DNA of 64,000 nt from an uncultured Verrucomicrobiae bacterium (GCA_963707025.1 CAVPOM010000005.1:544001-608000); one strand, 5' to 3'. Numbered from the stretch's first letter, positions 1 to 17,328 are shown. Notes: a model not told the origin generated them from the letters alone. Numbers and translations are program-made.

Positions 1-1061
1 ATATTGGTGTTAAACGAATTTGCGGCGTAGTCATATTCATAAAAAAATGTTGGCGCGTTGTAATCTAAGTAATTGCCGACGGCGCACAAAATCTTTCCAT
101 TGACCATCATGGCTCCACTGGAGTCAGCAGTTCCCAAGCCGTTCGGAATGACTGGGCCATCCGTCCAACTGCCAAAATTGGTGCTTCCGGAAGGGGTGTA
201 AATGGCCGTTACAGGCGGCCCACCAATAAAAAACACATTCCCATTTGGAAGCAGAAAGCCCGGCCCGATTTCCCCCAAAGCTAAGGAGAATAACTGCTCC
301 GGCAAGTCTTCGTCATCAATCCATTCGCCAAGAGGCGCGTTCAATGACGGGATGTAGCGCTGAGATTTCAGATCACCCCGGAGGGTAAGCTCACTGCCAT
401 CGGAAAGCTTAACCATGCTTTGTTCATCGGCATTAGCGTCGCCCTGAGCCAGTTTCGGCCCAGAGTAGATCGTGTTCGAAGAAGGGTCGAAGATTACTGT
501 GTAGCCATTTTTGGCCGGTTCTACCGGTGTTATAAGCACTCGGCCGTCCTGCAAAGTGAAAGACATTGAATCAACAAAGCCGTACTCATTGTTCCCTCCA
601 CTACCTACCACGGGGTTCGTGGTTATCAGACCAGGCGGAACCGGGATGATGGTCCAGGTATTGAGCTGGGGATCGTAAACCTCCGCATTGGTGGTCCCGT
701 CACCGTACTCCCCTCCCGCCACGAAGACTCTGCCATCGCGCAGAACGTCCGACGAGTACCATGTCCTGTTGCAATGCATGGAAGTGAGATTTGTCCACGA
801 CCCATTGACATAACTGCCATGTATATCAGGTGTCAACTTGTACCATGCATTTCCGATGTCGCCGGTAGTGCCATCGTTATTTGCGGCCATGACCGTGCCA
901 TCCGGCATCAACAACATCAAACAAACCGCACCCGGTGCGGGGTTTGCCAGTTGAGTCCAGGTTCCCGCTATCGCAAGCGAGGGAAGCAGCAGTGCGAAGA
1001 AAATCAGCGCCTGTCCATTCAATCGGACCACGTCGCGAAAGGTTGAGTAATATTTTCTCAT
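1..1061 (-). CDS. Secreted Kelch/galactose-oxidase-like beta-propeller protein (3' part runs off the window; not in the ORF track)
   Basis: Manual translation from the ATG at 1061 gives MRKYYSTF...IFFALLLPSLAIA (signal) GTWTQLANPAPGAVCLMLLMPDGTVMA...GSYVNGSWTNLTSM...YSSDVLRDGRVFVAGGEYG. The LxDGxV..GG blade motifs recur (LQDGRVL, LSDGSEL, LPNGNVFFIGG). Confidence 0.8.
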   Translation of the reverse strand, partial: MRKYYSTFRDVVRLNGQALIFFALLLPSLAIAGTWTQLANPAPGAVCLMLLMPDGTVMAANNDGTTGDIGNAWYKLTPDIHGSYVNGSWTNLTSMHCNRTWYSSDVLRDGRVFVAGGEYGDGTTNAEVYDPQLNTWTIIPVPPGLITTNPVVGSGGNNEYGFVDSMSFTLQDGRVLITPVEPAKNGYTVIFDPSSNTIYSGPKLAQGDANADEQSMVKLSDGSELTLRGDLKSQRYIPSLNAPLGEWIDDEDLPEQLFSLALGEIGPGFLLPNGNVFFIGGPPVTAIYTPSGSTNFGSWTDGPVIPNGLGTADSSGAMMVNGKILCAVGNYLDYNAPTFFYEYDYAANSFNTN

Positions 1062-1089
1062 GGGTTTATTTTTAGAGCGGACATCGTGA

Positions 1090-3672
1090 TTATTGCAGCG
1101 TGACCAGCACGAGCACCATGCCCTGGCCTTCCTGCAGTGTGGACATGGCCTTGCCGAGGATCGCGCCAGCGGCTCTGGCGTGGTCGGTCACTTTCATGGC
1201 CCGGCCCGGCATGCTTGAAGTGGTCAGCAAGTCGCCCGGTTCGATGGCCCCGTTGGAGGCGTCGGCTTGAACATAAACACGCCCGGTCAGGGCCACATTC
1301 CTTCCGCCTTCGAGCAAGCCCTGCTGCTGCATCCTGATTCCAGGTTTGATTCCGTTGGCGCCGCTGACGACGCCAGCCACACGGGTGTCATACGGTCGGT
1401 CGGTTAATTTCAACTGACCTGGATGCGCCGCGTCAATCACCACCACCGCGCCTTCGGTAACCGGCTGCTCCCCCGCAGAGATCGAAAACGGCTCCGCCAG
1501 GTCGGAACCACCGGTAATGATGATTTCTGTACAGGTAACTGAAGTGCATATCGGACTTTGAATCGTCCCGGCAATGAAGGTCTTGGTCTGGTCGGCGCCA
1601 ATGCGGATGACGGCGCTATCCGTGGAAGCGCCCAGACTGCCGATATAGATATTGTCGCTGCCACTGCTGAGACTAACGCCCGCGCCGAAACCGATTGCGA
1701 TATTGAAATCACCACTCTTATTGCCAGAAAGCGCAGACTCCCCAACAGCCGTGTTGTATACTCCACTCGTATTGGCAGAAAGCGCAGAATCGCCAATGGC
1801 CGTGTTGTATTCGCCACTCGTGTTGGCGGCAAGCGCCAAATAGCCGTTGGCCGTGTTGCCATAGCCGACGGTGGTTAACTGGAGGGCTTGATAACCGATG
1901 GCCGTGTTCTCACCGTTGTCCGAAGTACTGCCTTGAGCATAAGCATTGTCGTTCTCAAGAGCATGATAGCCAATGGCCACGAGTTGATTGTCATTCGTGC
2001 AATTCCCCAGCGCCAGATCGCCCAAGGCCACGTTTTGATAGCCAACTTGATTCAATTTCATCGCATCATGACCCATGGCCGTGTTCTGGTAGCCGCTCGT
2101 GTTGTTGTTAAGCACATTATAGCCATCGGCCGTGTTGAAATAGCCGCTCGAGTTGGCGTAAAGCGCTTCGTAACCATTGGCCGTGTTGTTGTAGCCGCTG
2201 GTGTTGGACAGGAGCGCCCAGTAGCCATTGGCCACATTATTTGAGCCGGTCGAGTTGTTATACAATGCCTCATAGCCCAAGGCCGTGTTGTCGTTGCCGA
2301 CGGTGTTGTTTCCCAGAGCGCCGGCACCCACCGCCGCGTTGAATGAGCCACCGCCGTTCTGCGAAAGAGCGGCATAGCCAAGCCCCGTGTTAGCGGCACC
2401 GGTGGTGGTAAAATTACCGGCGAACGGCCCGGCGTAGAAGTCAAAGTCGTTGTCGGCAATTAAAAGTCTGTTGCCGCCGTAATAAATGGCGGCCGGCCCC
2501 GGCCCCGGCAAATTCAGATTGCCGCCGACCGTCACACTGCCAAAGGTCACGCTCGGTTCGTTGTTCGTCACCAGGCCGGCTGGCAATTGCGTTGATGAAA
2601 AAGCGCCGGTTAAATTTGTTGCGTTGAGATTGGTCAGGCCCGCGCCGTTGCCGGTGACGACGCCGGCAATCAACGCCTGGGTCTGGCCGGTGCCAATGCG
2701 GATGATATTGGTGTCCGTGGCCAGGCCCATGTTCCCAATGTCAATGTTGGAACTGCCGGTGGTGATATTGTAACCGGCTTGGTAGCCCAGCGCGATGTTG
2801 TAGCTGCCGAGACCGTTGAGGCTGTAAAGCGACTGATAGCCGTTGGCCGTGTTGTAGCTGCCGGTGCCGTTGGACCAGAGCGCATATTCGCCAATGGCCA
2901 CATTGAACGAGCCGCTCGAGTTGTTGCCCAGCGCCAAGGCGCCGAAGGCGGAGTTGTTTTCGCCGACGCTGTTCATATACATCGCCAAATAGCCAACGGC
3001 CGTATTTTGGTAGCCGCTGCTGTTGTTGATTAGCGCCAAATAGCCGACCGCTGTGTTGTCGTAGCCAATCATGTTGTCGTAAAGCGCCTGGAAGCCATAG
3101 GCCGTGTTGGCGTTGCCAGTCGTGTTTCTGCTAAACGCCTGAAAGCCATCCGCCGTGTTGTAGGAGCCGCTCATCGTCGAATTGCCCGACGGACCGACGA
3201 AGAAGTTCTCACTAAGAGTGTAGTTGGTATTGCCGATGCTTGTCAATTGAGAGGCCGACAAGGTGCCGCTCAAATTGCTGGAGTTTTCCGCATAAATTGC
3301 ATACGGCACGGGCGTCAGTTCCTGACGCGGCGTCAACGGGGTGAAACTGCTGACGCCATTGCTTTCCACGCCAATCTGCAACCAGTCGGTCGCGCCAGTG
3401 AACACACCAGAGCCAAAATCAATCAGCACCGTGAACAGGCCGTTGGTGACAATGACGGCGTTGTTGGTCACCGGCCCGGCCATGGCGACACCGCCGGTGT
3501 TGGTGTTGAACAGCGAGAAGGTCAGATTATAGGTGCCGCTGGCCGGACTACCGTTGTCTTGGAGCTGGCCTTGATAGGTGAAGGCCGTGCCCTGGGCGAG
3601 CACCGGCTGGATGGAGAGGAGCAGGCCGCCCAAAGCGGCCGCGGGCGCGAGACGCGCCAACAGGTTTTTCAT
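1090..3672 (-). CDS. Fibre A: secreted tailspike-like protein with [10 protein letters not shown]-domain, two blocks of 17-aa NTAxG repeats and a C-terminal G2/IMC-type autocleaving chaperone
   Basis: Start reassigned to MKNLLARL (3672), followed by a signal peptide ending [14 protein letters not shown]. Repeats such as NTAVGYLALINNSSGYQ. The C-terminus GGS-DLAEPF...VALTGRVYV...PGDLLTTS...GAILGKAM resembles the phi29 gp12 chaperone. Confidence 0.8.
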   Translation of the reverse strand: MKNLLARLAPAAALGGLLLSIQPVLAQGTAFTYQGQLQDNGSPASGTYNLTFSLFNTNTGGVAMAGPVTNNAVIVTNGLFTVLIDFGSGVFTGATDWLQIGVESNGVSSFTPLTPRQELTPVPYAIYAENSSNLSGTLSASQLTSIGNTNYTLSENFFVGPSGNSTMSGSYNTADGFQAFSRNTTGNANTAYGFQALYDNMIGYDNTAVGYLALINNSSGYQNTAVGYLAMYMNSVGENNSAFGALALGNNSSGSFNVAIGEYALWSNGTGSYNTANGYQSLYSLNGLGSYNIALGYQAGYNITTGSSNIDIGNMGLATDTNIIRIGTGQTQALIAGVVTGNGAGLTNLNATNLTGAFSSTQLPAGLVTNNEPSVTFGSVTVGGNLNLPGPGPAAIYYGGNRLLIADNDFDFYAGPFAGNFTTTGAANTGLGYAALSQNGGGSFNAAVGAGALGNNTVGNDNTALGYEALYNNSTGSNNVANGYWALLSNTSGYNNTANGYEALYANSSGYFNTADGYNVLNNNTSGYQNTAMGHDAMKLNQVGYQNVALGDLALGNCTNDNQLVAIGYHALENDNAYAQGSTSDNGENTAIGYQALQLTTVGYGNTANGYLALAANTSGEYNTAIGDSALSANTSGVYNTAVGESALSGNKSGDFNIAIGFGAGVSLSSGSDNIYIGSLGASTDSAVIRIGADQTKTFIAGTIQSPICTSVTCTEIIITGGSDLAEPFSISAGEQPVTEGAVVVIDAAHPGQLKLTDRPYDTRVAGVVSGANGIKPGIRMQQQGLLEGGRNVALTGRVYVQADASNGAIEPGDLLTTSSMPGRAMKVTDHARAAGAILGKAMSTLQEGQGMVLVLVTLQ

Positions 3673-3924
3673 AGATTTCGTTTTTGGCTGTGGAGTCGTT
3701 GGACGTGAACGCGGTGTTGCCAGGATTAAAGGCTCACAGCCACGAAACCCGGAATAGTGACAACCCGTCAAATCTCACACACATTGCGCTAATTGCAACC
3801 AGTATCTTTTCTCATTGCCACATTTCCGCATTCTCCATTCTCCGCTTCCTGGCCGCTGGAAACATGCGGCTCCGCCAACGGAGCACGTCAGACTTCCGGC
3901 GTCAGACAGGTGGCGGGAGACGTT

Positions 3925-4377
3925 TTAGGGATGGCTCAGGCGGAAAAAGAGATTTCCCTTCGGTGGCGCGTTGGTCACGCTGTTATTGACGACCGGGCCG
4001 GTGTAGTTGCCCCAAGGGGTCGTGCCGACCTGGCTGTTGGTTTGGAGCGTCCAACCGCTTGAAGGCAAGGGCCAGGAGACGACCGCTTGACCGCCGGAAA
4101 AAGTGATCGTCAACAAGGGCGCGCCGGGTGTTTGCACCACGGCAAGCAAACTCCAGAAGCCGCCCGTCAAGGAATAATTGCCCCCGGCCATCGCCACCCC
4201 GGCGTCGTGCTGGCCGATCGTGCCGCTGACGGAATACTGCCCGTTGCTGCTTGTGCCGCCGCCGCCGCTGATTTTATACCAGCCAATGGAGTATTGTTGG
4301 GCGTGGAGGGCCAGCCCCAGCAGAATCAGCGGCAGGGTGAAAAGGATCATCTTTTTCAAGGTGATGCTACGAGACAT
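3925..4377 (-). CDS. Small secreted fibre-associated protein (YSIGWYKISGGG...GTIGQ domain plus a C-terminal domain ending FFRL)
   Basis: Signal peptide ending LHA-QQYSIGWYKISGGGGTSSNGQYSVSGTIGQHDAG...LTGGFW, then PLLTI...VVSWP...WTLQ...NLFFRLSHP. It starts 13 bp after the S53 gene. Confidence 0.8.
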   Translation of the reverse strand: MSRSITLKKMILFTLPLILLGLALHAQQYSIGWYKISGGGGTSSNGQYSVSGTIGQHDAGVAMAGGNYSLTGGFWSLLAVVQTPGAPLLTITFSGGQAVVSWPLPSSGWTLQTNSQVGTTPWGNYTGPVVNNSVTNAPPKGNLFFRLSHP

Positions 4378-4390
4378 GGGTTTGATGGGG

Positions 4391-6322
4391 TCAATTGCCG
4401 ATGGTGGCCGGGCCGTCCTGGGAGGTGATGGTCATCGGTTTTGAAATGGTCATGGTTTCGGAACTGGAGCCGGCAGTTTCGATGAAGATGGTTCCTCCTG
4501 AAGTGACAGCACTTACGCCGCCCCCCAGGGTGTTAAATGGCTGATAATAACTTCCGGTCTGGGTGCCGGAGTAGTTGAAGTTAACAAAGACGGGGCCGGC
4601 GTATCCGACGAGGGCCTTGATGAGGTCCGCGCCCGCGGGCGATCCCCATCCAGTGCAAAGATCGTAGCCTGGCTTGGCGTAGTAGAGACTTGGGCTGTTG
4701 CTCCATGTATTATTCCCGTTGGTGATGTCGTGGAAACAGGAAGAATACAATGAACCTTCGGCAACGTTGTAGAGGGCGGGGGTGACAAAGCCGACCGGTG
4801 GCAGCCCCTGCTCCGCGGCCTGCTGATTCACCAGGGCCATAAACCCAGCCCAGAGCGGCGCCGCACAGCTTGTGCCAGCTTCGTCCTGGAAAATCCGCAC
4901 TCCGTTGGTGGTAGTAAATACGTCCAGGACACCGTCCGCCGCCGCGGCGACATCCGGAACATTACACTTGGCCGAGGATCCGCCATTGGCGCTCATATCG
5001 ACGGACTGTTGATAAAGCGGGATTGGAATCGGGGTCAGGATTCCGCCGGAGCTGCCGTTCGGACCGCCGCTTGGTCCGCTTTGTCCCCAGACCGTTTCGC
5101 CAGTCCAGGTTCCTCCGTCGTAAGTCAGCACCAATTCCGTACCTCCCACCTGGGTCATATACGGTTGCAGGTCAGCGGCAGAGGCTCCGTTAATATAGGT
5201 TCCTCCGGGACCATTGGGATCAACCGGCAGCGCGCCCTCATCACCCATCGCATAGAAATAGGACTGGCCCTGCACGGCCAATCGGAGGCAACAATTGGAA
5301 GTCGCGCCATCGGTGCCACTCCCATAGGAGGAACTGATCTGGAGAGGCAATGGCTCACCATTGGTCGGATCCGCCATGGAGGTTAAGACGCCATCCAGGT
5401 CACTGTAGTAGCCGTAATAGAAAACCACTTTTTGGAGGCCGGGGGCCATGGAGATGGCCATTTCAATGTCCAGCGACGCCTCCCCATCTCCGTCAAAGGA
5501 AGGAATGTGGGGGTAGCCGTCCACCAGCACCTCCTGCACAGGGACATTCGGCAATCCGGCCGTCGCTTCGTAGGCGAGAATGTCGTTGGTGCTGTAGCCT
5601 TCTTGGAACTCAATCAAGCCGACCACTTGTCCGGAGCCCTCATTGGTCGTGCCAGCGGCGTAAGCATGTCTAAAATCGGAGCCCATCAGTAATTGTTGCC
5701 CATTCGGGTCATAAGAGCCTCCGCCATACTTGGGAGCTTGACTATTGTCGTGAGCATGGGCTTTGGCATGGGGCAATTCATAGTCATTCAAACCGCTGAT
5801 GGCCAGGACCGGGACGGCCAAGTCCAGGGACGGCTCGACATCCGGCGCAAAAAACTGGCGTGCTTCGGTTGGGTGCTGATACAGGCGCAGCGTCAGATGA
5901 AAGGTCTTTTCAACGTCCGCCACCGCGCCCTCAACACTGACCAGGGTGCGGCCCGGATTGGTGTGAGTCACGGTCAAGCCGTTGGCCTTGACAAATTGGA
6001 TGACGGCCTGAAAATCCGCTTCTGTCGGCCCGAACCTCTCATTGAACTGCGCTGGAGTCAGATAGTGGCGGAAATTCGGGCTGGCCGGGTCGTAAATCCC
6101 CTTGAGCAACTGGCCCAGCGCTTCATTATTGCGCAGCGGCAGACTTATCCCGAGGTGCAGAAGATTGGTGGCCGCCAGCCGGCCCAGCGGCTGCAAGTTG
6201 CGCTGGGCCACGGCGGCCGGCACATGGCCTTGCAGCACTTGTCTTTCCGCCGCCGCCAGGGAAGCGACCGACAGAAAGAGCAGTGCCAGGCTGGTGGCCA
6301 TTTGCGAGAGTGTCTTCTTCAT
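4391..6322 (-). CDS. S53 (sedolisin/kumamolisin-family) serine peptidase with pro-domain and short C-terminal accessory domain
   Basis: Pro-kumamolisin region (YDPASPNFRHYLTPAQFNERFGP), catalytic EASLD, oxyanion GDEG, nucleophile GTSCAAP and Ca-site GYDLCTGWGSP. Confidence 0.92.
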   Translation of the reverse strand: MKKTLSQMATSLALLFLSVASLAAAERQVLQGHVPAAVAQRNLQPLGRLAATNLLHLGISLPLRNNEALGQLLKGIYDPASPNFRHYLTPAQFNERFGPTEADFQAVIQFVKANGLTVTHTNPGRTLVSVEGAVADVEKTFHLTLRLYQHPTEARQFFAPDVEPSLDLAVPVLAISGLNDYELPHAKAHAHDNSQAPKYGGGSYDPNGQQLLMGSDFRHAYAAGTTNEGSGQVVGLIEFQEGYSTNDILAYEATAGLPNVPVQEVLVDGYPHIPSFDGDGEASLDIEMAISMAPGLQKVVFYYGYYSDLDGVLTSMADPTNGEPLPLQISSSYGSGTDGATSNCCLRLAVQGQSYFYAMGDEGALPVDPNGPGGTYINGASAADLQPYMTQVGGTELVLTYDGGTWTGETVWGQSGPSGGPNGSSGGILTPIPIPLYQQSVDMSANGGSSAKCNVPDVAAAADGVLDVFTTTNGVRIFQDEAGTSCAAPLWAGFMALVNQQAAEQGLPPVGFVTPALYNVAEGSLYSSCFHDITNGNNTWSNSPSLYYAKPGYDLCTGWGSPAGADLIKALVGYAGPVFVNFNYSGTQTGSYYQPFNTLGGGVSAVTSGGTIFIETAGSSSETMTISKPMTITSQDGPATIGN

Positions 6323-6336
6323 GATTTTCGCCTCCG

Positions 6337-8460
6337 TTATTGCAAGGTGACCAGAACCAGCACCATGCCTTTGCCTTGGTTTAGCCCCGTCATGGCTTTG
6401 CCCAGAATCGCGCCCTGGGCCCTGGCGTGGTCGCTGACCTTCATGGCGTGGCCGGGGGTTGCGGAGGTCGTCAACAAATCACCCGGATTGATGGCGCCGT
6501 TGGCCGCGTCGGCCAGGACGTAAACCCGTCCGGTGAGAGCGACGTTTTTGCCGCCTTCGAGCAAGCCTTGCTGTTGCATCTGGATGCCGGGATTGACGCC
6601 GTTGGCGCCACTGAGAACGCCCGCCACGCGGGTGTCGTAGGGTTGGCTGCTCACTCGCAAATGCCCTGGATGGTCCTGGTCAATCACCACCACCGAGCCT
6701 GGGGGAAATTGGCCGGAAGGGCTTGAAACCGCAAACGGCTCGGCCAGGTCGGAACCGCCTTCGATGGTAATGGAACTGCAAAAGATATGCATGTAGGTGC
6801 TGTTGCCCCAGTTGTAAAAGGCGACGTTGGCGATGCTGCTGTTCATGCTGCCGATCTGCACGTCGCTGCCCGAACCATTGCCGCCGATGTAGGCGTCTAT
6901 GGGGCCGGCCCCGTTGAACGCGTTGGCCCCGGTTATTTGCGCGAAATTGCCGCGCACGGTCAGGGAGTCGGCGGAGAAGTTGTTGCTGACCCAGACATTG
7001 CCCGTATAGTCCCAACTCAAACTGATCTCATTCGGTGCAACGGTGCCCAGCGACCCGCCATTGAAACCGTAAAGAAACGGGCCAGCTCCGCCGGGGACTG
7101 CAATCAGCCCGGTTGTGTCATAGACCAGTCCGTTATCCGTGTCGCCTCCGTCCAATGCAATGGTGCCGGCAACGTAAGTCGCGGTTTGGACGCCCGGCGT
7201 GCCGAGACGGATGATGCTGTTATCGCCGGAAGATCCCGCGTTGCCGATGTCAATGTTGTTATTGCCGTTGAGGATGTTGTAACCCGCCTGATAACCCAAG
7301 GCGATATTGCCGCTGCCGCTCGAGTTGGCCAGGAGCGCCAGAGAGCCATCAGCGGTGTTGCGGGAGCCGGTCGTGTTCTGCCAAAGCGCTTGAAAGCCAT
7401 TGGCCACGTTATTGGAGCCGGTCGAGTTGTTTTCCAGCGCCTGAGCGCCACTGGCGGTGTCGAAGGTGCCGGCCGTGTTGACATTCAGCGCGAAGGCCCC
7501 GCTGGCGGTGTTGTAAGAGCCGGAAGTGTTGCCATATAAGGCCCGATAGCCGGTGCCGGTGTCTTGAAAGCCGGTGGTGTTGGCGAGAAGCGCCTGGGAA
7601 CCGACGGCGGTGTCCTGACTTTGATTGGTATTATTAAGCAACGCCTGAAAACCGACAGCCACGTTGTTGCCACCGGTGGTATTGAAGAAAAGCGCCCCCG
7701 CGCCATCCGCCGTGTTCTGGAAGCCGTTGGTGTTGGAGAAAAGCGCATCGGTGCCGGTGGCCGTGTTGTTGGCGCCGGTGGTGTTGGCGACAAGCGCATC
7801 AAAGCCAACGGCGGTGTTGTCCGCGCCGCTGGTGTTGGCGAAAAGCGCGCCCGCGCCATCGGCCGTGTTGTAGGAGCCGTTGGTGTTGGCGGAAAGCGCG
7901 CCCACGCCTTGAGCCGTGTTGTAGGAGCCGGTGGTGACGGAGAAAAGCGTGCCAAAACCCACCCCCGTGTTTTCAGACCCGCTCAGCGCGGAATTGCCGG
8001 AATTCTGACCGGCAAAGAAGTTCAGCGATCCATAATTGTTCAGCAGAGCGGTGGAGCCGGCACTCTCGGCGTAAATGGCGTAAGGGCTGGGCGTCAATTC
8101 CACGCGTGGACTCAAGGGCGTGAAAGTCGCGCCGGCGCCGTTGGTGCGCACGCCGATTTGCAGCCAGTAGGACGTGCCGTCAAAGACAGCGCCAAAGTCC
8201 ATGGTGATGATGAACAGCCCGTTGCTGACGGGCACGGCCAAATTGGTGTAGAGCACACTGGCCAGAACCCCGCCGGTGCTGGCGGGGTAGAGACTGGTGC
8301 GAATGTCGTAAAGCCCGTTGGCCGGGGCGCCGGAGTCCATCAACTGGCCTTCATAGGCGAACGCCGTGCCCTGGGCGAAAGCGCTGGAGAGTTGTGAGTT
8401 GAGAGTGGCCAGCGCCAGCAAGGCCAGCGCGCTGGACCAGCGGGGTGATCTGGTTTTCAT
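6337..8460 (-). CDS. Fibre B: secreted tailspike-like protein with QGTAFAYEG N-domain, 17-aa NTAxG repeats and G2/IMC-type chaperone
   Basis: Start reassigned to MKTRSPRW (8460) by comparison with the paralog starting at 12518. The C-terminal GGSDLAEPF...MVLVLVTLQ is highly similar to fibre A. Confidence 0.8.
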   Translation of the reverse strand: MKTRSPRWSSALALLALATLNSQLSSAFAQGTAFAYEGQLMDSGAPANGLYDIRTSLYPASTGGVLASVLYTNLAVPVSNGLFIITMDFGAVFDGTSYWLQIGVRTNGAGATFTPLSPRVELTPSPYAIYAESAGSTALLNNYGSLNFFAGQNSGNSALSGSENTGVGFGTLFSVTTGSYNTAQGVGALSANTNGSYNTADGAGALFANTSGADNTAVGFDALVANTTGANNTATGTDALFSNTNGFQNTADGAGALFFNTTGGNNVAVGFQALLNNTNQSQDTAVGSQALLANTTGFQDTGTGYRALYGNTSGSYNTASGAFALNVNTAGTFDTASGAQALENNSTGSNNVANGFQALWQNTTGSRNTADGSLALLANSSGSGNIALGYQAGYNILNGNNNIDIGNAGSSGDNSIIRLGTPGVQTATYVAGTIALDGGDTDNGLVYDTTGLIAVPGGAGPFLYGFNGGSLGTVAPNEISLSWDYTGNVWVSNNFSADSLTVRGNFAQITGANAFNGAGPIDAYIGGNGSGSDVQIGSMNSSIANVAFYNWGNSTYMHIFCSSITIEGGSDLAEPFAVSSPSGQFPPGSVVVIDQDHPGHLRVSSQPYDTRVAGVLSGANGVNPGIQMQQQGLLEGGKNVALTGRVYVLADAANGAINPGDLLTTSATPGHAMKVSDHARAQGAILGKAMTGLNQGKGMVLVLVTLQ

Positions 8461-8534
8461 AAGCGATTCAGGGTTCAGTCCGCCTCGGGAGGGCGACAGC
8501 CTCAAGAGGGCGGCGATTAACTGCTTGAGTTTTC

Positions 8535-8569
8535 ATCCTACCATTCACCCAAGTTAAGGTCAACTTAAA
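8535..8569 (-). promoter_or_regulatory. sigma70-type promoter with an 11-bp-period TTAA direct repeat over -35 (fibre B operon)
   Basis: Minus strand reads TTTAAG-TTGAC-CTTAAC and TTGACC-N17-TAGGAT with an extended -10 TG. The pattern is conserved in the paralogous copy at 12594-12628. Confidence 0.65.
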
Positions 8570-8720
8570 AAGCGCATTAGCCATTGGCCAAACGCTGAAA
8601 CCGCGTTGCGCCGCGGGAACAGCCACGCCGGGTCTGGTCCAAAGGTTGATCCGGGCAGGCCAAATCTGAGTGGCTGTCAATTTGCTCAAGCGGCCTGAGC
8701 CGACGCCACCTTCTTCGCAG

Positions 8721-8870
8721 GATGCCGCCGCCGCTGATTTAATACCAGCCAATCGAGTATTACCGCCCCAAAGCCCGAAGGCAGAAGCAACTTTGCAGAA
8801 GCAGGACACACAGCAGCAGCTTCGCCGCCGGCCATCCGCCATTTCCAATCTTCAATCCTCGCGCGTTCAT
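8721..8870 (-). pseudogene. Decayed copy of the small fibre-associated protein
   Basis: Its ATG overlaps the fibre C stop (ATGA). It reads MNARGLKIG...LLLCVLLLQSCFCLRALGR*YSIGWY*ISGGG, with two in-frame TAA stops, and then loses similarity. Confidence 0.8.
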
Positions 8871-11512
8871 TGGGCGCTTCCTTTCCTCCCGTTCATCAGT
8901 TGTTCCAGCTTTTCAAGACGTTGTTTCAATTCCTGAATCTCCGCGTCCTTCTCGTTGAGCTTCTGGTTCAAGCCCTGGATGGCGGCCAGGGCCACGCCCT
9001 CCTCGTCCACGGTGGCGATGTGTTTGTCATCGGCCCCGACATTGAAGGCGGCGTGGAAATCCTGAGCCATCGGCCCGATGTGCCGGGTGGCGGTGTCCAG
9101 CTTGAAACTCCACTCGGAGATGGGCAGCCGCGCCACCCGCGCCAGCACCTCCTGCGGGTCAATCCCGGTGAATTTCTCTTTGACGTCCCGGTCGCTGGTT
9201 GTCGTGAAAGTGACTGCCGAGACATTGCCGTTGGTGCCGGTGAGCACGATGGGCGGCTTGCCGCCAAGGATGGTGGAAGTGCCGCGCACGTCCAGATAAC
9301 CGCCCGCTGTGTTGTCCTTAGAGGGCCAGATTTCCAAGGCGTTGCGGAAGCGCATGTGGCCGGGGTAATTGATGCCCCCCACTACGATGCCCGGCGTAAC
9401 ATCATCATCGTTCTCAATGACCACCGTGCCCACTCCGGTGTCCACAGTAAATGGGGCATCAAAGGTGACGTTGCTCTCAGTTTTGGTGACCACCACGGCT
9501 GGCAAGGCCTGCAAGGGCACTGTGCCCGTGGTCAATTCCGAAGCGTTGAGATTGTCCAGTCCACTGCCATTCCCATTAAACGTGCCTGCCAGATTGCTGA
9601 TCACCATCGGCATATTCATGGCAACACGCTGTGGATAGACCAGCACCTCCGTCAGCGTATTGGTGCCGCTATTGGCGCTGAACAAATCCGGTGTGCCATC
9701 GTCGTTGACATCGGCGGCCACAACTTGCCAGGGGCCGGCTTCCACATGGATGGTGGCATAAAACCCAAAGATGCCGTGGCCATTGTTGGTCAGCACCGTC
9801 AACGAATCGTCGTCGGTATTGGCGGTGACCAAATCCGGCGCGCCGTCGCCGTTGATGTCCACCGCGATGACCGATTGCGGTTTAATTCCCACGTTCAGCG
9901 TGGCATTGGAACCAAAGACCCCGTGGCCGTTGTTGGTCAGCACGGTCAGCGTGTTTTCATAGGTTTCGGCACAAACCAAATCGGGTGAGCCATCGCCGTT
10001 GACATCCACCGCCACAACTGAAACCGGACTGTTGCTCACTGCGAGCGTGGCGTTGGAACCAAAGACGCCCTGGCCGTTGTTGGTCAGCACCGTCAATGTG
10101 CCGGAAGTGATATTGGCGCTGATCAAATCCGGCGCGCCGTCGCCGTTGATATCGGCCACCGCCACTTGATTCGGTCCCTCGCCCACGATGAGCGTGGCAT
10201 TGGAACCGAAGACGCCGCTGCCGTTGTTGGTGTACACGGTCAGGATGTTGGCGAACGTGCCAGAGGCAATCAAATCCACTGCGCCGTCGCCGTTGACATC
10301 CGCCGCCGCAACATAATATGGGCCGACTCCCACGTTGAGCGTGGCATTGGAAATAAAGCCGCCGTGGCCATTGTTGGTCAGCACCGTCAAGGTGCTGTCG
10401 CCGTTATTGGCGCAGATCAAATCCGGTTTGCCGTCGCCATTGACATCCGCCGCCACCACCGAAAGGGGAAAGTGGCCTACGTTGAGCGTGGCGATGGAAC
10501 CAAAAACGCCGTGGCCGTTGTTCGCCAGCACCGTCAACGTGTTGGAGCCTCCATTGGCGCTGACCAAGTCCAGTTTGCCGTCTCCGTTGACATCCACCGC
10601 GACAACCGAATATGGGTTGGCTCCCACGTTAAGCGGAAGGCCGGGGGTAAAGAGCGACGGCAGCAGGTTGAATGTTCCGGCCGGGCCAACCGACGAAAGG
10701 CTGATATTGGTCACCCCGGCCCCATTGCCGCTGAAACTACCGGTCAGCGCCACGTTGGCTGCGCCATTGGTCAATACGCTACTCGGCAACTGTCCCACCG
10801 GCAGCGTGCCCAGCAGATTGCTCGCGTTGCCGGCCACGACGGCGTACGGCGTGGGCGTCAAGTCCTGCACCGGACTCAGCGCGGCAAACCCGTTCACGCC
10901 GTCATTGAACCAAATGCGCAACTGCAGGCCGGATGCGTCCGTGAAGACGGAAACGGGGATGGCCGTCATGTTGGCCAGAGTCGTGTCGCCCAAAACCACG
11001 GTGAACAGGCCGTTGTTGACTCCCAGGCTCACCGCGTGGGCAGGTTGGCTGCCCGCGCTGCTGGTGCCGTCGTTGCTCCAGTAGGTTGTGAAGGAAAGGT
11101 CAACGGGGGGCGCGCCAATCGTCACGGTGGGCGTGCCGGTGTAACCGGAGCCGGGATTGTTCACCGTGATGGCGGTCACCGCCCCGCCGCTGACGCTGGC
11201 TGTGGCCGTGGCGCCCGAACCGCCGCCACCGGAAATGGTGACGGCGGGGGCGGTGGTGTAACCATTTCCGCCGAACGTGACGTTAATGACGGTGATGAAC
11301 CCGCCACTGGGAGGACTGGCCGTGGCGGTGGCCTGGCTGGCGACGTTCGAACTGGTGACCAGGGCGAACTTGAACTGCCCTGTGCCGCTGAAGTTGGTGC
11401 CGCCGTCCGTGACCAAGCCTTGATAGGTGAAGGCCGTGCCCTGGGCATGGGCGGAAAAGCAGATGGCGGAAAGCAGATGACAGATGGCGATAGACTTGAG
11501 TTTGATTTTCAT
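8867..11512 (-). CDS. Fibre C: secreted protein with [10 protein letters not shown]-domain, seven FG-GAP/VCBS repeats and C-terminal peptidase S74 chaperone
   Basis: Signal ending [12 protein letters not shown]; seven 49-aa repeats containing DVNGDGxxDL; S74 motifs TTSDRDVKE...W.FK...HIGPMAQDF; terminal coiled coil. Confidence 0.85.
9640..10625 (-). repeat. Seven tandem ~147-bp coding repeats (FG-GAP blades)
   Basis: The DNA motifs gccgttgttggtcagcaccgtca and cgccgttgacatcc recur with a 49-codon period. Confidence 0.85.
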
Positions 11513-11525
11513 AACTGGATTCCTT

Positions 11526-12518
11526 TCAATTTGATTTTCGGCTGAGAAGGATTCTTTCCAGCGCTTGGAGACGCAGCCTCAGTTCCATGTTCTCCGCATC
11601 GCGCCGTTTCAATTCCTCCTGGAGTTTCTGATTCAGCCCCTGAATGGGGGCCAGGGCCACGCCGCCTTCGTCCACGGTGGCAATATGCTTGTCATCCGGG
11701 CCGACGTTGAAGGCCGCGAAAAGATCCTGGGCCATCGGGCCGATGTGGCGCGTGCCGGCGTCGGCCTTGTAACTCCATTGGCTGATGGGCAGCGCCGTGA
11801 CCTTGTCCAGAATCTCCGCCGGACGCACCGCCTGGAAGCCTGGTTTGGCGTTGCGATCACTGGCGCTGACAAACGTCCCGCTGACCGTCAGCCCGCTGAG
11901 GGTGAGCTGCATCAACTCGGTGCCGCCGCTGCCCGGATCGTCGGTCGTATCACTGTGGCTGCCGCCGGGGAACCAGGCGAAGCCGGCGCTGGCGTGGGTG
12001 CGGAAATACTCCCGCGAGTTCTGGACCCCGATGCCGTAAGTGCTGGTCGAGAAATTGAGCATTTGCCGGGTCAGGTTTCCAAAGAACATGCTGGTGGAGG
12101 TGTCCGCTTGAATGCCTCCCTGCGCGCGGATGCAAAATTGAAAGTCAGCGGAGGAACCGAAATCAAAGACCTGGCCGTCCGACCAGACAAAACAGTTGTC
12201 GTTGGTCGCGGCTGCATTCAGGCCGGCGGCGAAGGACTCCAAGCCGCTGGCAAGATTGTCCACGCCGCCTGGAACTGTCGAACCGTAGGCGTCCGCCATG
12301 TTGCCGTTACCGCCGCCCACCGTCGCATCCCCGCCGTTGCTGGGATAAAGGCTGGTCCGAATGTCATAAAGGCCGTTGGCCAAAACACCGCTTTCCATCA
12401 ACTGGCCTTGAAAGGTGAAGGCCGTGCCCTGGGCGAAAGCGGGGGAAAGTGGCGCGTTGATGGTTGCAAGCGCGGGCAACGCCAGCGCGATGAACCAGCG
12501 GGGTGACCTGGTTTTCAT
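11526..12518 (-). CDS. Fibre D: short, probably internally deleted fibre with S74 chaperone
   Basis: The first ~59 aa match fibre B up to DIRTSLYP. The sequence then jumps to a ATVGGGNGN repeat remnant, a head region and S74 motifs SDRNAK...HIGPMAQD. Confidence 0.7.
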
Positions 12519-12593
12519 AGGCGATTCAGGGTTTCCATCCGCCTCGGGGCTGCGACGGCCTCCGGAGGACGGCGATTGACTGCTTAAGTTGTC

Positions 12594-12628
12594 ATCCTAC
12601 CACCAGCCCCGCTTAAGTTCAAGTTAAA
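12594..12628 (-). promoter_or_regulatory. sigma70-type promoter with TTAA direct repeat (fibre D/C operon)
   Basis: Minus strand reads TTTAAC-TTGAA-CTTAAG and TTGAAC-N17-TAGGAT; paralog of 8535-8569. Confidence 0.6.
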
Positions 12629-12774
12629 AACCGCGACACGACCTCCAAACCGTCAGAAAGCCGTCACAAGAAACTTGCCAAAAGCCGGGATTGGCCCAAT
12701 ATCACCACAAGTCTCCGCCACAGATTGGCAAAAACAAACGCCGCCAGGCGAAAGTTCCAACAACGGATTAACTA

Positions 12775-15706: not shown

Positions 15707-15878
15707 ATTTTTATAATGCGACCGGCAGGCGCCCCGGGTCAAGGCTCGCGCTTGCCGGTATAACCCATTCTGCGCAGTAATCGCCAATGCAAGCTGGTTG
15801 CACTCCGCTCCCTCTGGCCATGTCAGCCGATTTGGGTTTGCCAGTGAGTCGCGTTTAAGAGATTTTCAAGGTCAGAAT

Positions 15879-17328
15879 CACACCCGTCTCATAAGGGGAA
15901 AAGTCTGGTGCTGACCTGTTCATTTGCAAGGGTTTAATTGGTCTTCGGGGTAAAATGAGATTTTGATTTTTCCGAGTTTGGCTTTTGGGTTTGGTATGCG
16001 CCTGTTTGGGCGCGTGTGCTGTCCCATAGCTTTATTGGAAGCCGGGGAAATACGCCTGCTCGGGCCGCGCCAAGTGGCGAAAGCTGCCGCCTGCTGTCCC
16101 ATAGCACGCCAGCAAATTGAGCAGATCATATTTCTCCCAGAGCGCCGCCCGCAAAATCGTGAACAGCCGGGTGAAGCTGTGCGCCCAGTTGGAGAGGTGA
16201 CTGAGGTAGCGCAACAGCACGTAGGTCAACAGCGCCGTCCACACCTGCCAGCGCACGGCGTTGGCGTTGTGGCCCAGAAAATCCGCCAACTGCAAGGTCT
16301 GCTTGATTTGTTTGAAGAAGACTTCGATCTGCCAGCGGCAGCGGTAAAGGTCGGCCACGCTGCGCGGACTCCACTCCAGGTTGTTGGTCAGGAAGGTCAT
16401 TTCCCGTTCCTCTCCATCAATCTCGACCAGCGCCACCACCCGGCGCATCAACTCCGGCGCGGGTTTGTTCTCGTTGCTCAGGACGATCACTTCGTCGCGC
16501 AAAATCTTCGGGTCTCTGGAGGCGGGCATTTTCCGCACCACCTCATAGCCCATGTTCTCCTTGGCCCGCGTCACCCAAAAGACCCCGCGCCCGTCCAAAT
16601 CCCGCAAGTGGCCGAAGTCCACATAACCCTTGTCGAACAAGGCGATTTCGCCGCTCTTCAAGTCGGCGCACAGTTCCCGCGCCCGTCGGTTGTCGTGCTC
16701 GGCGGCAGTGTCCACAATGACAAAACCGGGCAAAAGATTCTGCAGATTCAACCGCATATGGGTTTTGGCGGCGGCCTTGCGCCGGCGGTGCTTGGCCCAG
16801 TCCAGGCAGTTGGCCACCAGTTCCATGGTCGTGCTATCAATCACATGGATGGGCATCTTGAAACGGAAGGCGGGGCCACGGCGCTGGCCCGCGGCAAAGC
16901 CGGGCGTCTGTGCTTTCAAATGCTCCAGGACCCGCCAGAAGAGTTGTTCGGCCATCTGGGCCGGACGCTCCCGGTTGGCGTGGGAGAGGCCGTTGCGGCT
17001 GGGGGCGCTGGCGCCGCGCAAAGTGGACAGCGGCCCGGAATGCAATTGCAGCGAGTCGCACAGATCGTTGAGTCCGATGCAATGGGTGAGTTGCGCGTCC
17101 AGCAAACTGACCGTGTGACTCCACGGACTGAAGGTGCGCGACTTATCCAGAGCCCGGTCTCCCGCGCTATTTTGGAGACTTCATGCGCAGGAATGAGATT
17201 GCAAATCTGGCGCAAAACGTTAAACCGGGACCGTGTCGGTTTGATTTTTTTGTTTTTCATGCCTGCCTTGTGGCAGGTTCAAATGGTCAAGCCAACACTT
17301 TTTTCCAATTTCCTGTGGGATGGCTGTG
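15879..17328 (-). mobile_element. IS4-family insertion sequence, copy 1 (1450 bp)
   Basis: Ends CACAGCCATCCCACAGG / CACACCCGTCTCATAAGG; 9-bp target duplication GGTCAGAAT at 15870-15878 and 17329-17337; near-identical to 62496-63946. Confidence 0.95.
16032..17260 (-). CDS. IS4-family DDE transposase, frameshifted near 17153 (G3 versus G4 in copy 2)
   Basis: IDST, FDKGY and YRCRWQIEVFFK (YREK) motifs; 1 bp shorter than the intact copy. Confidence 0.9.

What the first reader, a model, noticed from the sequence alone, without database searches (positions are those of the whole stretch)
1..12635. Candidate cellular surface-fibre system built from phage tailspike parts
Seen: four genes encode Sec signal + shared QGTAFx(Y/F)(Q/E)G N-domain + variable shaft/head + C-terminal chaperone. 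They form two co-oriented operons with a small partner, an S53 protease and a Kelch-like protein, and no virion or contractile-system genes lie in the window. Known: S74 and phi29-gp12-type domains are self-cleaving trimerisation chaperones of phage fibres, and Bdellovibrio displays S74-containing mosaic adhesive trimer (MAT) fibres. Inference: this is a domesticated, exported trimeric adhesin system in an apparently saccharolytic bacterium, with the YQG domain as common anchor. The resemblance to the MAT N-domain is from memory and untested.
Basis: partly seen in the sequence, partly recalled or inferred. Interest (0 to 1): 0.85.

Follow-up and report, generated by a model that had tools for sequence, protein, structure and literature searches.

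The report
Surface fibres tipped with swappable enzymes
This bacterial chromosome carries genes for relatives of the sticky surface fibres of the predator Bdellovibrio, and two of them are each followed by a protease or propeller gene ending in a small uncatalogued domain that is predicted to plug onto the fibre's cut tip, which would let the cell hold interchangeable enzymes out on stalks.

Summary
Largely confirmed and extended. Three intact fibre genes and one deletion remnant carry signal-peptide-like starts and an N-domain homologous to the Bdellovibrio MAT N-domain (hhalign 97.4%, E 1e-11; below the NCBIfam cut-off). No phage or contractile-system genes were found nearby. Two end in S74 chaperones, two in a conserved beta-clip domain (gp12-type assignment inconclusive). 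New: the S53 protease and the Kelch protein share a 70-residue C-terminal beta-helix-cap module ('TIG tail'). Its genes follow beta-clip fibres in 44 of 44 metagenome loci with room downstream, and follow 0 of 33 other fibres. The tail is fused to unrelated proteases, esterases and propellers. A structure prediction docks one tail onto the cut trimeric tip, one strand per chain (0.80, best control 0.02). Best reading: a small partner likely anchors the fibre base, the chaperone likely cleaves itself off, and an enzyme is predicted to cap the tip, like phage gp37-gp38 but on a cell. Cleavage, binding and display are untested.

The parts
1090..3672 (-). Fibre A, 860 aa: signal peptide, MAT-type (YQG) N-domain, two blocks of 17-residue N[TVS]AxG repeats (19 copies), tip, C-terminal beta-clip domain
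   Evidence: NF053851 25.3 bits for the isolated domain
3271..3594 (-). N-domain of A; predicted seven-strand beta-sandwich
   Evidence: AF2 pLDDT 86.5; hhalign to Bdellovibrio MAT N-domains 97.4%; no PDB match at E<=0.001, best VIA Z 7.7
1093..1503 (-). C-terminal beta-clip domain of A (137 aa, starts at DLAE after IIITGGS); likely self-cleaving chaperone
   Evidence: invariant G-G-x-D-x-x-E in 11 of 11 rows; fold matches; cleavage inferred
1..1061 (-). Kelch beta-propeller protein, 5' part; continues to G000:C5:543325 and ends in a TIG tail (C5:543325-543537, left of the window); predicted tip cargo of fibre A
   Evidence: Pfam Kelch; full ORF; tail match
3925..4377 (-). Small partner, 150 aa: signal peptide, 54-aa glycine-rich module (4138-4299), C-terminal tag ending FFRL; candidate surface anchor
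   Evidence: no Pfam/NCBIfam/PHROG family; at least 7953 homologues; neighbourhood counts
4391..6322 (-). S53 (sedolisin-type) protease with pro-domain and intact E-D-S motifs; predicted tip cargo of fibre B
   Evidence: Pfam PF09286 4e-25; EASLDIE 281, MGDEG 359, GTSCAAP 483
4394..4603 (-). TIG tail of the S53: 70-aa beta-helix N-cap plus one open rung with three short xTI strands; predicted docking module
   Evidence: alignment; no Pfam family; weak PDB matches to beta-helix caps; complex prediction
6337..8460 (-). Fibre B, 707 aa: signal peptide, YQG N-domain (8056-8373), 10 N[TVS]AxG repeats, beta-rich tip, C-terminal beta-clip domain (6340-6750)
6751..6948 (-). Tip segment of B ending SSITIEGGS at the inferred cleavage site; its last nine residues form the predicted docking surface
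   Evidence: residues 58-66 of all three copies at the interface
8867..11512 (-). Fibre C, 881 aa: signal peptide, YQG N-domain with insertion, FG-GAP propeller head, S74 chaperone (8870-9196)
   Evidence: Pfam FG-GAP_3 4e-63, Peptidase_S74 1.4e-8; NF053851 E 0.0012
11526..12518 (-). Gene D, 330 aa: B-like start with truncated N-domain, short remnant and S74 domain; likely decayed

Best explanation
The locus encodes homologues of Bdellovibrio MAT fibres that likely act as exported trimeric stalks, and fibres A and B are predicted to carry a separately encoded enzyme or propeller protein docked on their cut tip. Steps: (1) shown by sequence: all proteins have signal-peptide-like starts and no transmembrane anchor; the N-domain is homologous to the MAT N-domain. 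(2) Inferred: the C-terminal domain (S74 in C and D, beta-clip in A and B) drives trimer folding and cleaves itself off; in A and B the cut falls after I-x-G-G-[SAC]. (3) Predicted: the three exposed terminal strands take one TIG tail, whose three xTI strands pair one to each chain, capping the fibre 3:1 and displaying whatever is fused to the tail (here an S53 protease on B, a Kelch propeller on A). (4) Inferred, weakest: the small partner binds the N-domain and supplies the [FY][FY]R[LV] C-terminal tag that many other secreted proteins of this genome carry, mooring the fibre on the surface. The likely use is to hold hydrolases some 30-40 nm out from the envelope (scaled from Bd3182) to digest polymers or other cells' surfaces.
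For: MAT homology: hhalign 97.4%, E 1.1e-11, 103 columns; 10 of 11 matches of the YQG profile in a Bdellovibrio bacteriovorus genome are MAT N-domains; 9 of 9 weak NF053851 matches in G000 fall on YQG paralogues. Tail-fibre coupling: in 151 genomes of the order the beta-clip domain is in 33, the tail in 28, both in 26; 54 of 66 non-own tails lie within 7 kb of a beta-clip fibre on the same strand, 50 downstream; 44 of 44 metagenome beta-clip genes with >=2.5 kb downstream have a tail gene within 4.5 kb; in partner-centred loci 8 of 8 beta-clip, 0 of 13 S74 and 0 of 20 other fibres do. Tail fused to unrelated cargo: S53, S8, M12, M43, M4, astacin, trypsin, beta-lactamase-family, GDSL, Kelch, FG-GAP, Vps10 (34 of 56 proteins had a Pfam hit). 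The tail ends 0-3 residues after its last strand in the 37 aligned rows, which were chosen as C-terminal copies. Four other S53 paralogues in G000 end in FYR[VL] instead. Complex: score 0.80, best of 3 controls 0.02; the mark was reached by 116 of 157 solved and 2 of 215 mismatched pairs; runs agree in >=96% of contacts; partner pLDDT 91. Partner: 39 of 65 copies have a same-strand YQG gene in the fetched locus, 30 within 1.5 kb.
Against: Cleavage of the beta-clip domain is not shown: no sequence match to gp12, and the fold match to the gp12 C-terminal fragment is partial (Z 4.7, rmsd 2.3, 50 residues, rank 13) and weaker than to capsid decoration domains (Z 7.5) on a model of pLDDT 60. The complex was built on a chain that I cut at the assumed site, an open beta edge invites stacking, the controls were unrelated proteins and not other fibre tips, and the job is unlike the tool's calibration. 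Some fibres have two or three tail genes (L223, L232, L299), so one tip per cargo implies mixed populations. 12 of 66 tails had no beta-clip gene on the contig within 7 kb, 4 of 38 beta-clip genes in L211-L250 had no tail gene, and a few genes carry the module N-terminally (L203, L201). Genomes of one order are not independent. 26 of 65 partner genes have no same-strand fibre in the locus, and most of the roughly 12 fibre paralogues in G000 have no adjacent partner. The route across the outer membrane is unknown.
Confidence: 0.62

Rival explanations
1. The tail binds the intact beta-clip domain, which stays on the fibre as a trimeric docking platform, like capsid decoration proteins; cargo display is real but no cleavage occurs.
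For: Best fold matches are phi29 gp8.5 N-base and gpD-like decoration proteins; the domain is 55-69% identical across the aligned genomes; co-occurrence fits equally well.
Against: Invariant D and E right after the last shaft strand; the prediction puts the tail on the strands that this domain would cover; a distant relative of the domain without the I-x-G-G tip has no tail gene in 15 kb (G223).
Confidence: 0.13
2. The tail is a transient cap or hitch-hiking export tag: cargo rides the fibre through the envelope or stabilises the tip and is then released, so there is no lasting enzyme-tipped stalk.
For: Cargo proteins lack the FxRL tag that their paralogues carry; several cargo genes can follow one fibre.
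Against: A 3:1 beta-strand cap with about 80 contacts resembles a stable tip complex; in T-even phages the tip protein stays bound after chaperone cleavage (PMC7917993 passages).
Confidence: 0.12
3. Plain MAT-like adhesins; the protease and Kelch genes are co-transcribed accessories (for example a maturation protease) and the shared tail is a carbohydrate- or calcium-binding remnant with no contact to the fibre.
For: The tail is related to beta-helix caps that occur in thousands of unrelated large proteins (8963 hits at E<=0.001; PDB hits E 0.02-0.2). Fibre C does look like a self-contained adhesin.
Against: Near-exclusive linkage to one fibre C-terminal type, many unrelated catalytic and non-catalytic cargoes, and the predicted interface.
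Confidence: 0.1
4. Prophage, tailocin or eCIS fibre remnants.
For: PHROG matches of shaft repeats and S74; one gene truncated, one neighbour broken by an IS.
Against: Signal-peptide-like starts; no structural phage genes in 100 kb or sheath/baseplate in the genome; N-domain not found in phage records; gene order conserved across the order.
Confidence: 0.03

Closest known systems
Mosaic adhesive trimer (MAT) fibres of Bdellovibrio bacteriovorus (Caulton et al. 2024, PMC10769870; NCBIfam NF053851)
   Same: Signal peptide, homologous beta-rich N-domain, mosaic shaft, S74 or other C-terminal domain, many paralogues per genome; the paper's Table S3 already lists PVC and FCB homologues with 'S74-like' tips.
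   Different: N-domain is shorter (about 108 aa, lacks the Cys-bearing insert) and scores under the NF053851 cut-off; described MAT tips are encoded in the fibre itself, whereas A and B are predicted to take a second, separately encoded protein; no predation is known for this host; a small partner gene accompanies the fibres.
T-even long tail fibre tip gp37-gp38 (phage S16, T2; as described in PMC7917993 and PMC9608196)
   Same: Trimer whose C-terminal intramolecular chaperone is cut off, exposing three terminal strands that dock a separately encoded, exchangeable tip protein from the next gene.
   Different: Cellular and exported, not virion; beta-clip and not S74 chaperone; docking module is a C-terminal beta-helix cap, not an N-terminal tryptophan helix domain; cargoes are mostly hydrolases. 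It works like this system and is not a member of it.
phi29 gp12 C-terminal chaperone (PDB 3GQH) and beta-clip decoration domains (phi29 gp8.5 N-base, lambda gpD)
   Same: Fold of the C-terminal 60-65 residues; position after a beta-rich shaft; a serine-like last residue before the cut (PMC4690869 passage); DxxE motif (recalled for gp12).
   Different: No detectable sequence similarity; N-terminal half of the model unresolved; 137 aa.
Cellulosome-type scaffolds (from own knowledge)
   Same: Unrelated enzymes carry one small docking module that plugs them onto a surface-held scaffold.
   Different: No cohesin or dockerin; one site at the end of a trimeric fibre; mostly proteases.
Trimeric autotransporter adhesins (YadA type)
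   Same: Trimeric surface fibre; some homologues carry this database label.
   Different: No C-terminal beta-barrel anchor; the C-terminus is the distal end.

Membership tests
MAT superfamily (broad sense of Caulton 2024) | Conserved beta-rich domain directly after the signal peptide | tested here: met
   hhalign 97.4%, E 1.1e-11; reciprocal genome searches; 26 of 33 members match NF053851 at E<=0.1. D has only a fragment.
MAT superfamily (broad sense of Caulton 2024) | Variable C-terminal tip, S74 or other | tested here: met
   S74 in C and D, beta-clip in A and B; other ends in paralogues
MAT superfamily (broad sense of Caulton 2024) | Homotrimer along the length | tested here: inconclusive
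   Only a 66-aa tip of B was folded as three copies (pLDDT 71-81); no full-length model
MAT superfamily (broad sense of Caulton 2024) | Surface display and ligand binding | not testable with these tools
   needs microscopy or proteomics
NCBIfam NF053851 Bdello_MAT_N (Bdellovibrio subfamily) | Score over the curated cut-off of 60 bits | tested here: not met
   A 25.3 bits; best in G000 23.8 bits in the genome search; Bdellovibrio copies 109-250 bits
Peptidase_S74 chaperone (C, D) | Pfam PF13884 over cut-off and SDxxxK motif about 110 aa from the end | tested here: met
   35.3 and 37.6 bits vs 22; SDRDVK, SDRNAK
phi29 gp12-type chaperone (A, B) | Fold and sequence similarity to the gp12 C-terminal domain | tested here: inconclusive
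   No Pfam or PDB sequence hit; VIA Z 4.7, rmsd 2.3, 50 aligned to 3GQH, below decoration proteins
phi29 gp12-type chaperone (A, B) | Autocleavage at the DxxE motif | not testable with these tools
   D and E invariant; gp12 motif recalled, primary paper not held
T-even gp37-gp38 tip | Tip protein docks through an N-terminal tryptophan helix domain on a virion fibre | tested here: not met
   Module is C-terminal, related to beta-helix caps; no virion context
S53 sedolisin | Pro-kumamolisin domain and Glu-Asp-Ser triad motifs | tested here: met
   (triad motifs from own knowledge)
Trimeric autotransporter adhesin | C-terminal beta-barrel anchor | tested here: not met
   No such Pfam match; C-termini are S74 or beta-clip
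Prophage or eCIS fibre | Sheath, tube, baseplate or capsid genes nearby | tested here: not met

The most novel reading that the evidence does not exclude
Verrucomicrobiota of this order have a general plug-in display system: a self-cleaving MAT-type trimeric fibre, moored by a small tagged adaptor, whose tip is a socket for any protein ending in a 70-residue beta-helix cap. More than ten unrelated protease, esterase and propeller families have been fitted with that plug, giving enzyme-tipped stalks, a protease counterpart of the cellulosome built from phage-fibre parts; the adaptor would also be the missing MAT anchor type.
Probability: 0.5. Interest if true: 0.9.

Novelty: new variant of a known kind. 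Interest (0 to 1): 0.78.

Why it matters
MAT fibres were described as prey-binding adhesins with the tip encoded in the fibre, and their surface anchor is an open question in the paper. If the reading holds, the same scaffold is used in an abundant, little-studied lineage to display separately encoded hydrolases at a distance, by a 3:1 symmetry-matching trick (three strands of one chain capping a triple beta-helix). It gives a function to an uncatalogued domain, explains a conserved three-gene order, and can be tested with two short recombinant proteins. A 70-residue plug and a 9-residue socket would also be a usable protein-display tool.

Tried and rejected
Prophage/eCIS: rejected. Phage origin of the N-domain: no match in the phage collection; the single IMG/VR locus L034 lies beside an alanyl-tRNA-synthetase-like gene, so it looks host-derived. 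Structure searches gave no named fold for the N-domain or a sequence match for fibre A. The partner profile found nothing in the Bdellovibrio genome; an empty answer there shows nothing. A T9SS tail search rang nowhere, controls included, so it is uninformative. ESM Atlas gave only unnamed clusters. No RNA holder was listed. Names and taxa of tail-bearing proteins could not be looked up, so the range outside Verrucomicrobiota is unchecked. The first tip alignment (A9) slipped onto an internal xLT[VI]xG strand of B and was redone; this shows that the tip motif resembles ordinary shaft strands. The TcdB_midN, Dockerin_1 and PliI hits on C overlap its FG-GAP repeats and were set aside. Partner-to-N-domain binding and tail-to-intact-domain binding were not modelled: the one complex job went to the tip. 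Literature searches with no paper describing this system: 0 papers; 2 unrelated; 7 Bdellovibrio papers.
Full report
Setting. The window is G000:C5:544001-608000. The few named close homologues are labelled Limisphaerales or Verrucomicrobiota. The rest of the window is mostly glycoside hydrolases and sugar transport genes.

Observation. Seven minus-strand genes fill 1-12518: D, C, B, S53, small partner, A, Kelch. All have a hydrophobic signal-peptide-like start and no strong transmembrane segment later. A, B and C have a full N-domain (C with an insertion); D has about 40 residues of it and is a B-like deletion remnant. Left of the window the Kelch gene ends, then come a 66-codon fragment of the A/B C-terminal domain, a second S53 interrupted by an IS 99.9% identical to the one at window 15878-17328, and a truncated second partner. 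So the left part is a tandem of [fibre, cargo, partner] units. No phage or eCIS family was found in 47 long ORFs chosen from 504-608 kb, and sheath and baseplate-J searches of the genome were empty while ringing in 3 of 14 controls.

The N-domain is a MAT N-domain homologue. NCBIfam NF053851 matches A and C weakly and 26 of 33 aligned verrucomicrobial N-domains at E<=0.1, below its cut-off where scores were shown. All 9 of its matches at E<=1 in G000 fall on YQG paralogues. I reached a B. bacteriovorus genome, took 17 MAT genes over the cut-off, aligned the 13 whose N-domain my script located and compared profiles: probability 97.4%, E 1.1e-11, 103 columns. In reverse, 10 of 11 matches of the YQG profile in that genome are those MATs. 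The AF2 model is a seven-strand sandwich (pLDDT 86.5) without a clear PDB match. Caulton et al. 2024 (abstract, passages, supplement parts 4 and 5 read) state that this domain presumably binds an unidentified surface element and list homologues outside Bdellovibrio. About 12 paralogues occur in G000; the domain was found in 25 of 251 genomes of the phylum with one query.

The small partner. It has no family match and at least 7953 homologues. Its 54-aa module matched 39 of 61 genomes of the order. I fetched loci for the best 65 of 77 non-own matches: 30 have a same-strand YQG gene within 1.5 kb (28 upstream), 39 within the locus, 26 have none, many of these at contig ends. Nearly all end in [FY][FY]R[LVI]; 80 ORFs of G000 end that way against 32 in a four times longer control stretch. 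In other lineages the module is fused to other C-termini. This fits an adaptor that lends the fibre a sorting tag. Earlier notes of the scan propose the same for other genomes; I had the idea noted before reading them, tested the neighbourhood only, and did not model the binding.

The A/B C-terminal domain. It is 137 aa, begins after I-x-G-G-[SAC] with invariant D and E, and has no Pfam or PDB sequence match. The model is weak (pLDDT 60); its C-terminal half is a beta-clip, closest to phi29 gp8.5 N-base (Z 7.5) and also matching the gp12 C-terminal fragment (Z 4.7, rmsd 2.3 over 50). A self-cleaving chaperone is the likely role by position and motif; a passage in PMC4690869 says that phi29 gp12 has a beta-stranded chaperone and keeps a serine as last mature residue. 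Cleavage here is inferred.

The new element: the TIG tail. The S53 and the Kelch protein end in the same 70-aa domain. It has no Pfam family and weakly matches the N-terminal caps of beta-helices (E 0.02-0.2). In G000 all three C-terminal copies and both beta-clip fibres are in this locus. In 151 genomes of the order, 26 have both, 7 only the beta-clip domain, 2 only the tail (kin are not independent). Of 66 non-own tails 50 lie within 7 kb downstream of a beta-clip gene, 4 upstream, 12 have none; without the six contigs used to build the profile, 40, 4 and 12 of 56. With a deeper profile, 34 of 38 beta-clip genes in 40 further loci have an adjacent tail gene (hand-picked loci that partly overlap the training set). 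In the 80 best of 516 metagenome loci, not used for training, 44 of 44 beta-clip ORFs with at least 2.5 kb downstream have a tail gene within 4.5 kb; of the 37 with less room, 15 have one downstream, 1 upstream, 21 none; 28 of the 44 also have a partner gene. As a control, among fibres in partner-centred loci, 8 of 8 beta-clip fibres (training overlap), 0 of 13 S74 fibres and 0 of 20 others are followed by a tail gene. One genome of another class shows the same pair; another, whose related domain lacks the I-x-G-G tip, shows no tail in 15 kb. The cargoes are unrelated to each other: of 56 scanned, 34 had Pfam hits, among them S53, S8, M12, M43, M4, astacin, trypsin, beta-lactamase-family, GDSL, Kelch or galactose-oxidase-like, FG-GAP and Vps10.

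Structural test. The tail's last rung has three short xTI strands and stops right after the third, which suggested a pseudo-threefold cap for three terminal strands. I folded three copies of the last 66 residues of B before the assumed cut with one S53 tail. Score 0.80 against 0.02 for the best of 3 controls; the tool's mark was reached by 116 of 157 solved complexes and 2 of 215 mismatched pairs; runs agree in at least 96% of contacts; partner pLDDT 91. Tip residues 58-66 of each chain pair with tail strands 53-56, 59-62 and 69-71, one chain each. This supports binding and does not show it: the cut was my assumption, no other fibre tip or uncleaved form served as control, and beta-edge stacking may be easy to predict.

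Mechanism and comparison. The sequence of events (export, trimer folding, self-cleavage, 3:1 capping by a cargo, mooring by the partner) parallels T-even gp37-gp38, where chaperone cleavage exposes the docking surface for the tip protein (PMC7917993 and PMC9608196, passages). The docking fold, the chaperone type, the cargo and the cellular setting differ. How a folded trimer crosses the outer membrane is open; G000 has six secretin matches. Fibre C, with an FG-GAP head and S74, looks like a conventional self-contained MAT. A 2026 review (PMC13689555, passages) mentions no MAT anchor or tip cargo; passages of PMC3482391 and bioRxiv 10.64898/2026.05.12.724579 held nothing on this system. Searches that found no description; the scan's own notes held nothing on the tail. 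One supplementary PDF and the Prism file of PMC10769870 could not be read.

Verdict. Real, chromosomal, MAT superfamily in the broad sense and outside the Bdellovibrio subfamily model. The fibre family and the small partner were seen before; the tip-docked, exchangeable enzyme cargo appears undescribed. New variant of a known kind, interest 0.78.

Noticed in passing
G000:C1:55895-67336 (minus strand): A YQG/S74 fibre gene (63850-65514) sits in a run with a 2641-aa secreted protein whose C-terminal part resembles, by recall only, Tc-type A subunit ends, plus two further conserved-looking genes.
   Followed up: no
G000 genome-wide; window 3928-4125: 80 ORFs end in [FY][FY]R[LVI] within 7 residues of the stop, a likely sorting tag of this lineage; earlier scan notes describe it too.
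   Followed up: partly
G000:C9:274208-274693: A lone intact copy of the small partner lies just upstream of a gene that looks like a PilT-type ATPase (label by reading, not scanned).
   Followed up: no
window 15878-17328 and G000:C5:540839-542290: Two copies of one IS (DDE transposase), 99.9% identical over 1452 nt; the left copy interrupts the second S53 gene.
   Followed up: yes
L283; G000:C5:543107-543307: A metagenome locus shows the same order as here: fibre, cargo, short beta-clip fragment, second cargo; this suggests that cargo genes are added by recombination in the fibre's 3' end.
   Followed up: partly
G000:C12:46363-49867 and C13:35380-41067: Tandem fibre paralogues with in-frame TAG stops at the same position (C12) or a frameshift near the start (C13).
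   Followed up: no
L203:840-2384, L201:1-1014: Genes beside beta-clip fibres that carry the cap module at the N-terminus instead of the C-terminus.
   Followed up: no
window 17500-63900: Dense cluster of fucosidases (GH29, GH95), GH3, GH31, GH38, GH39, arabinofuranosidase-like genes and an amino-sugar pathway.
   Followed up: no
G000:C5:526175-526609: A type IV pilin-like gene (N_methyl motif) next to an S53 that ends in the FYRV tag.
   Followed up: no
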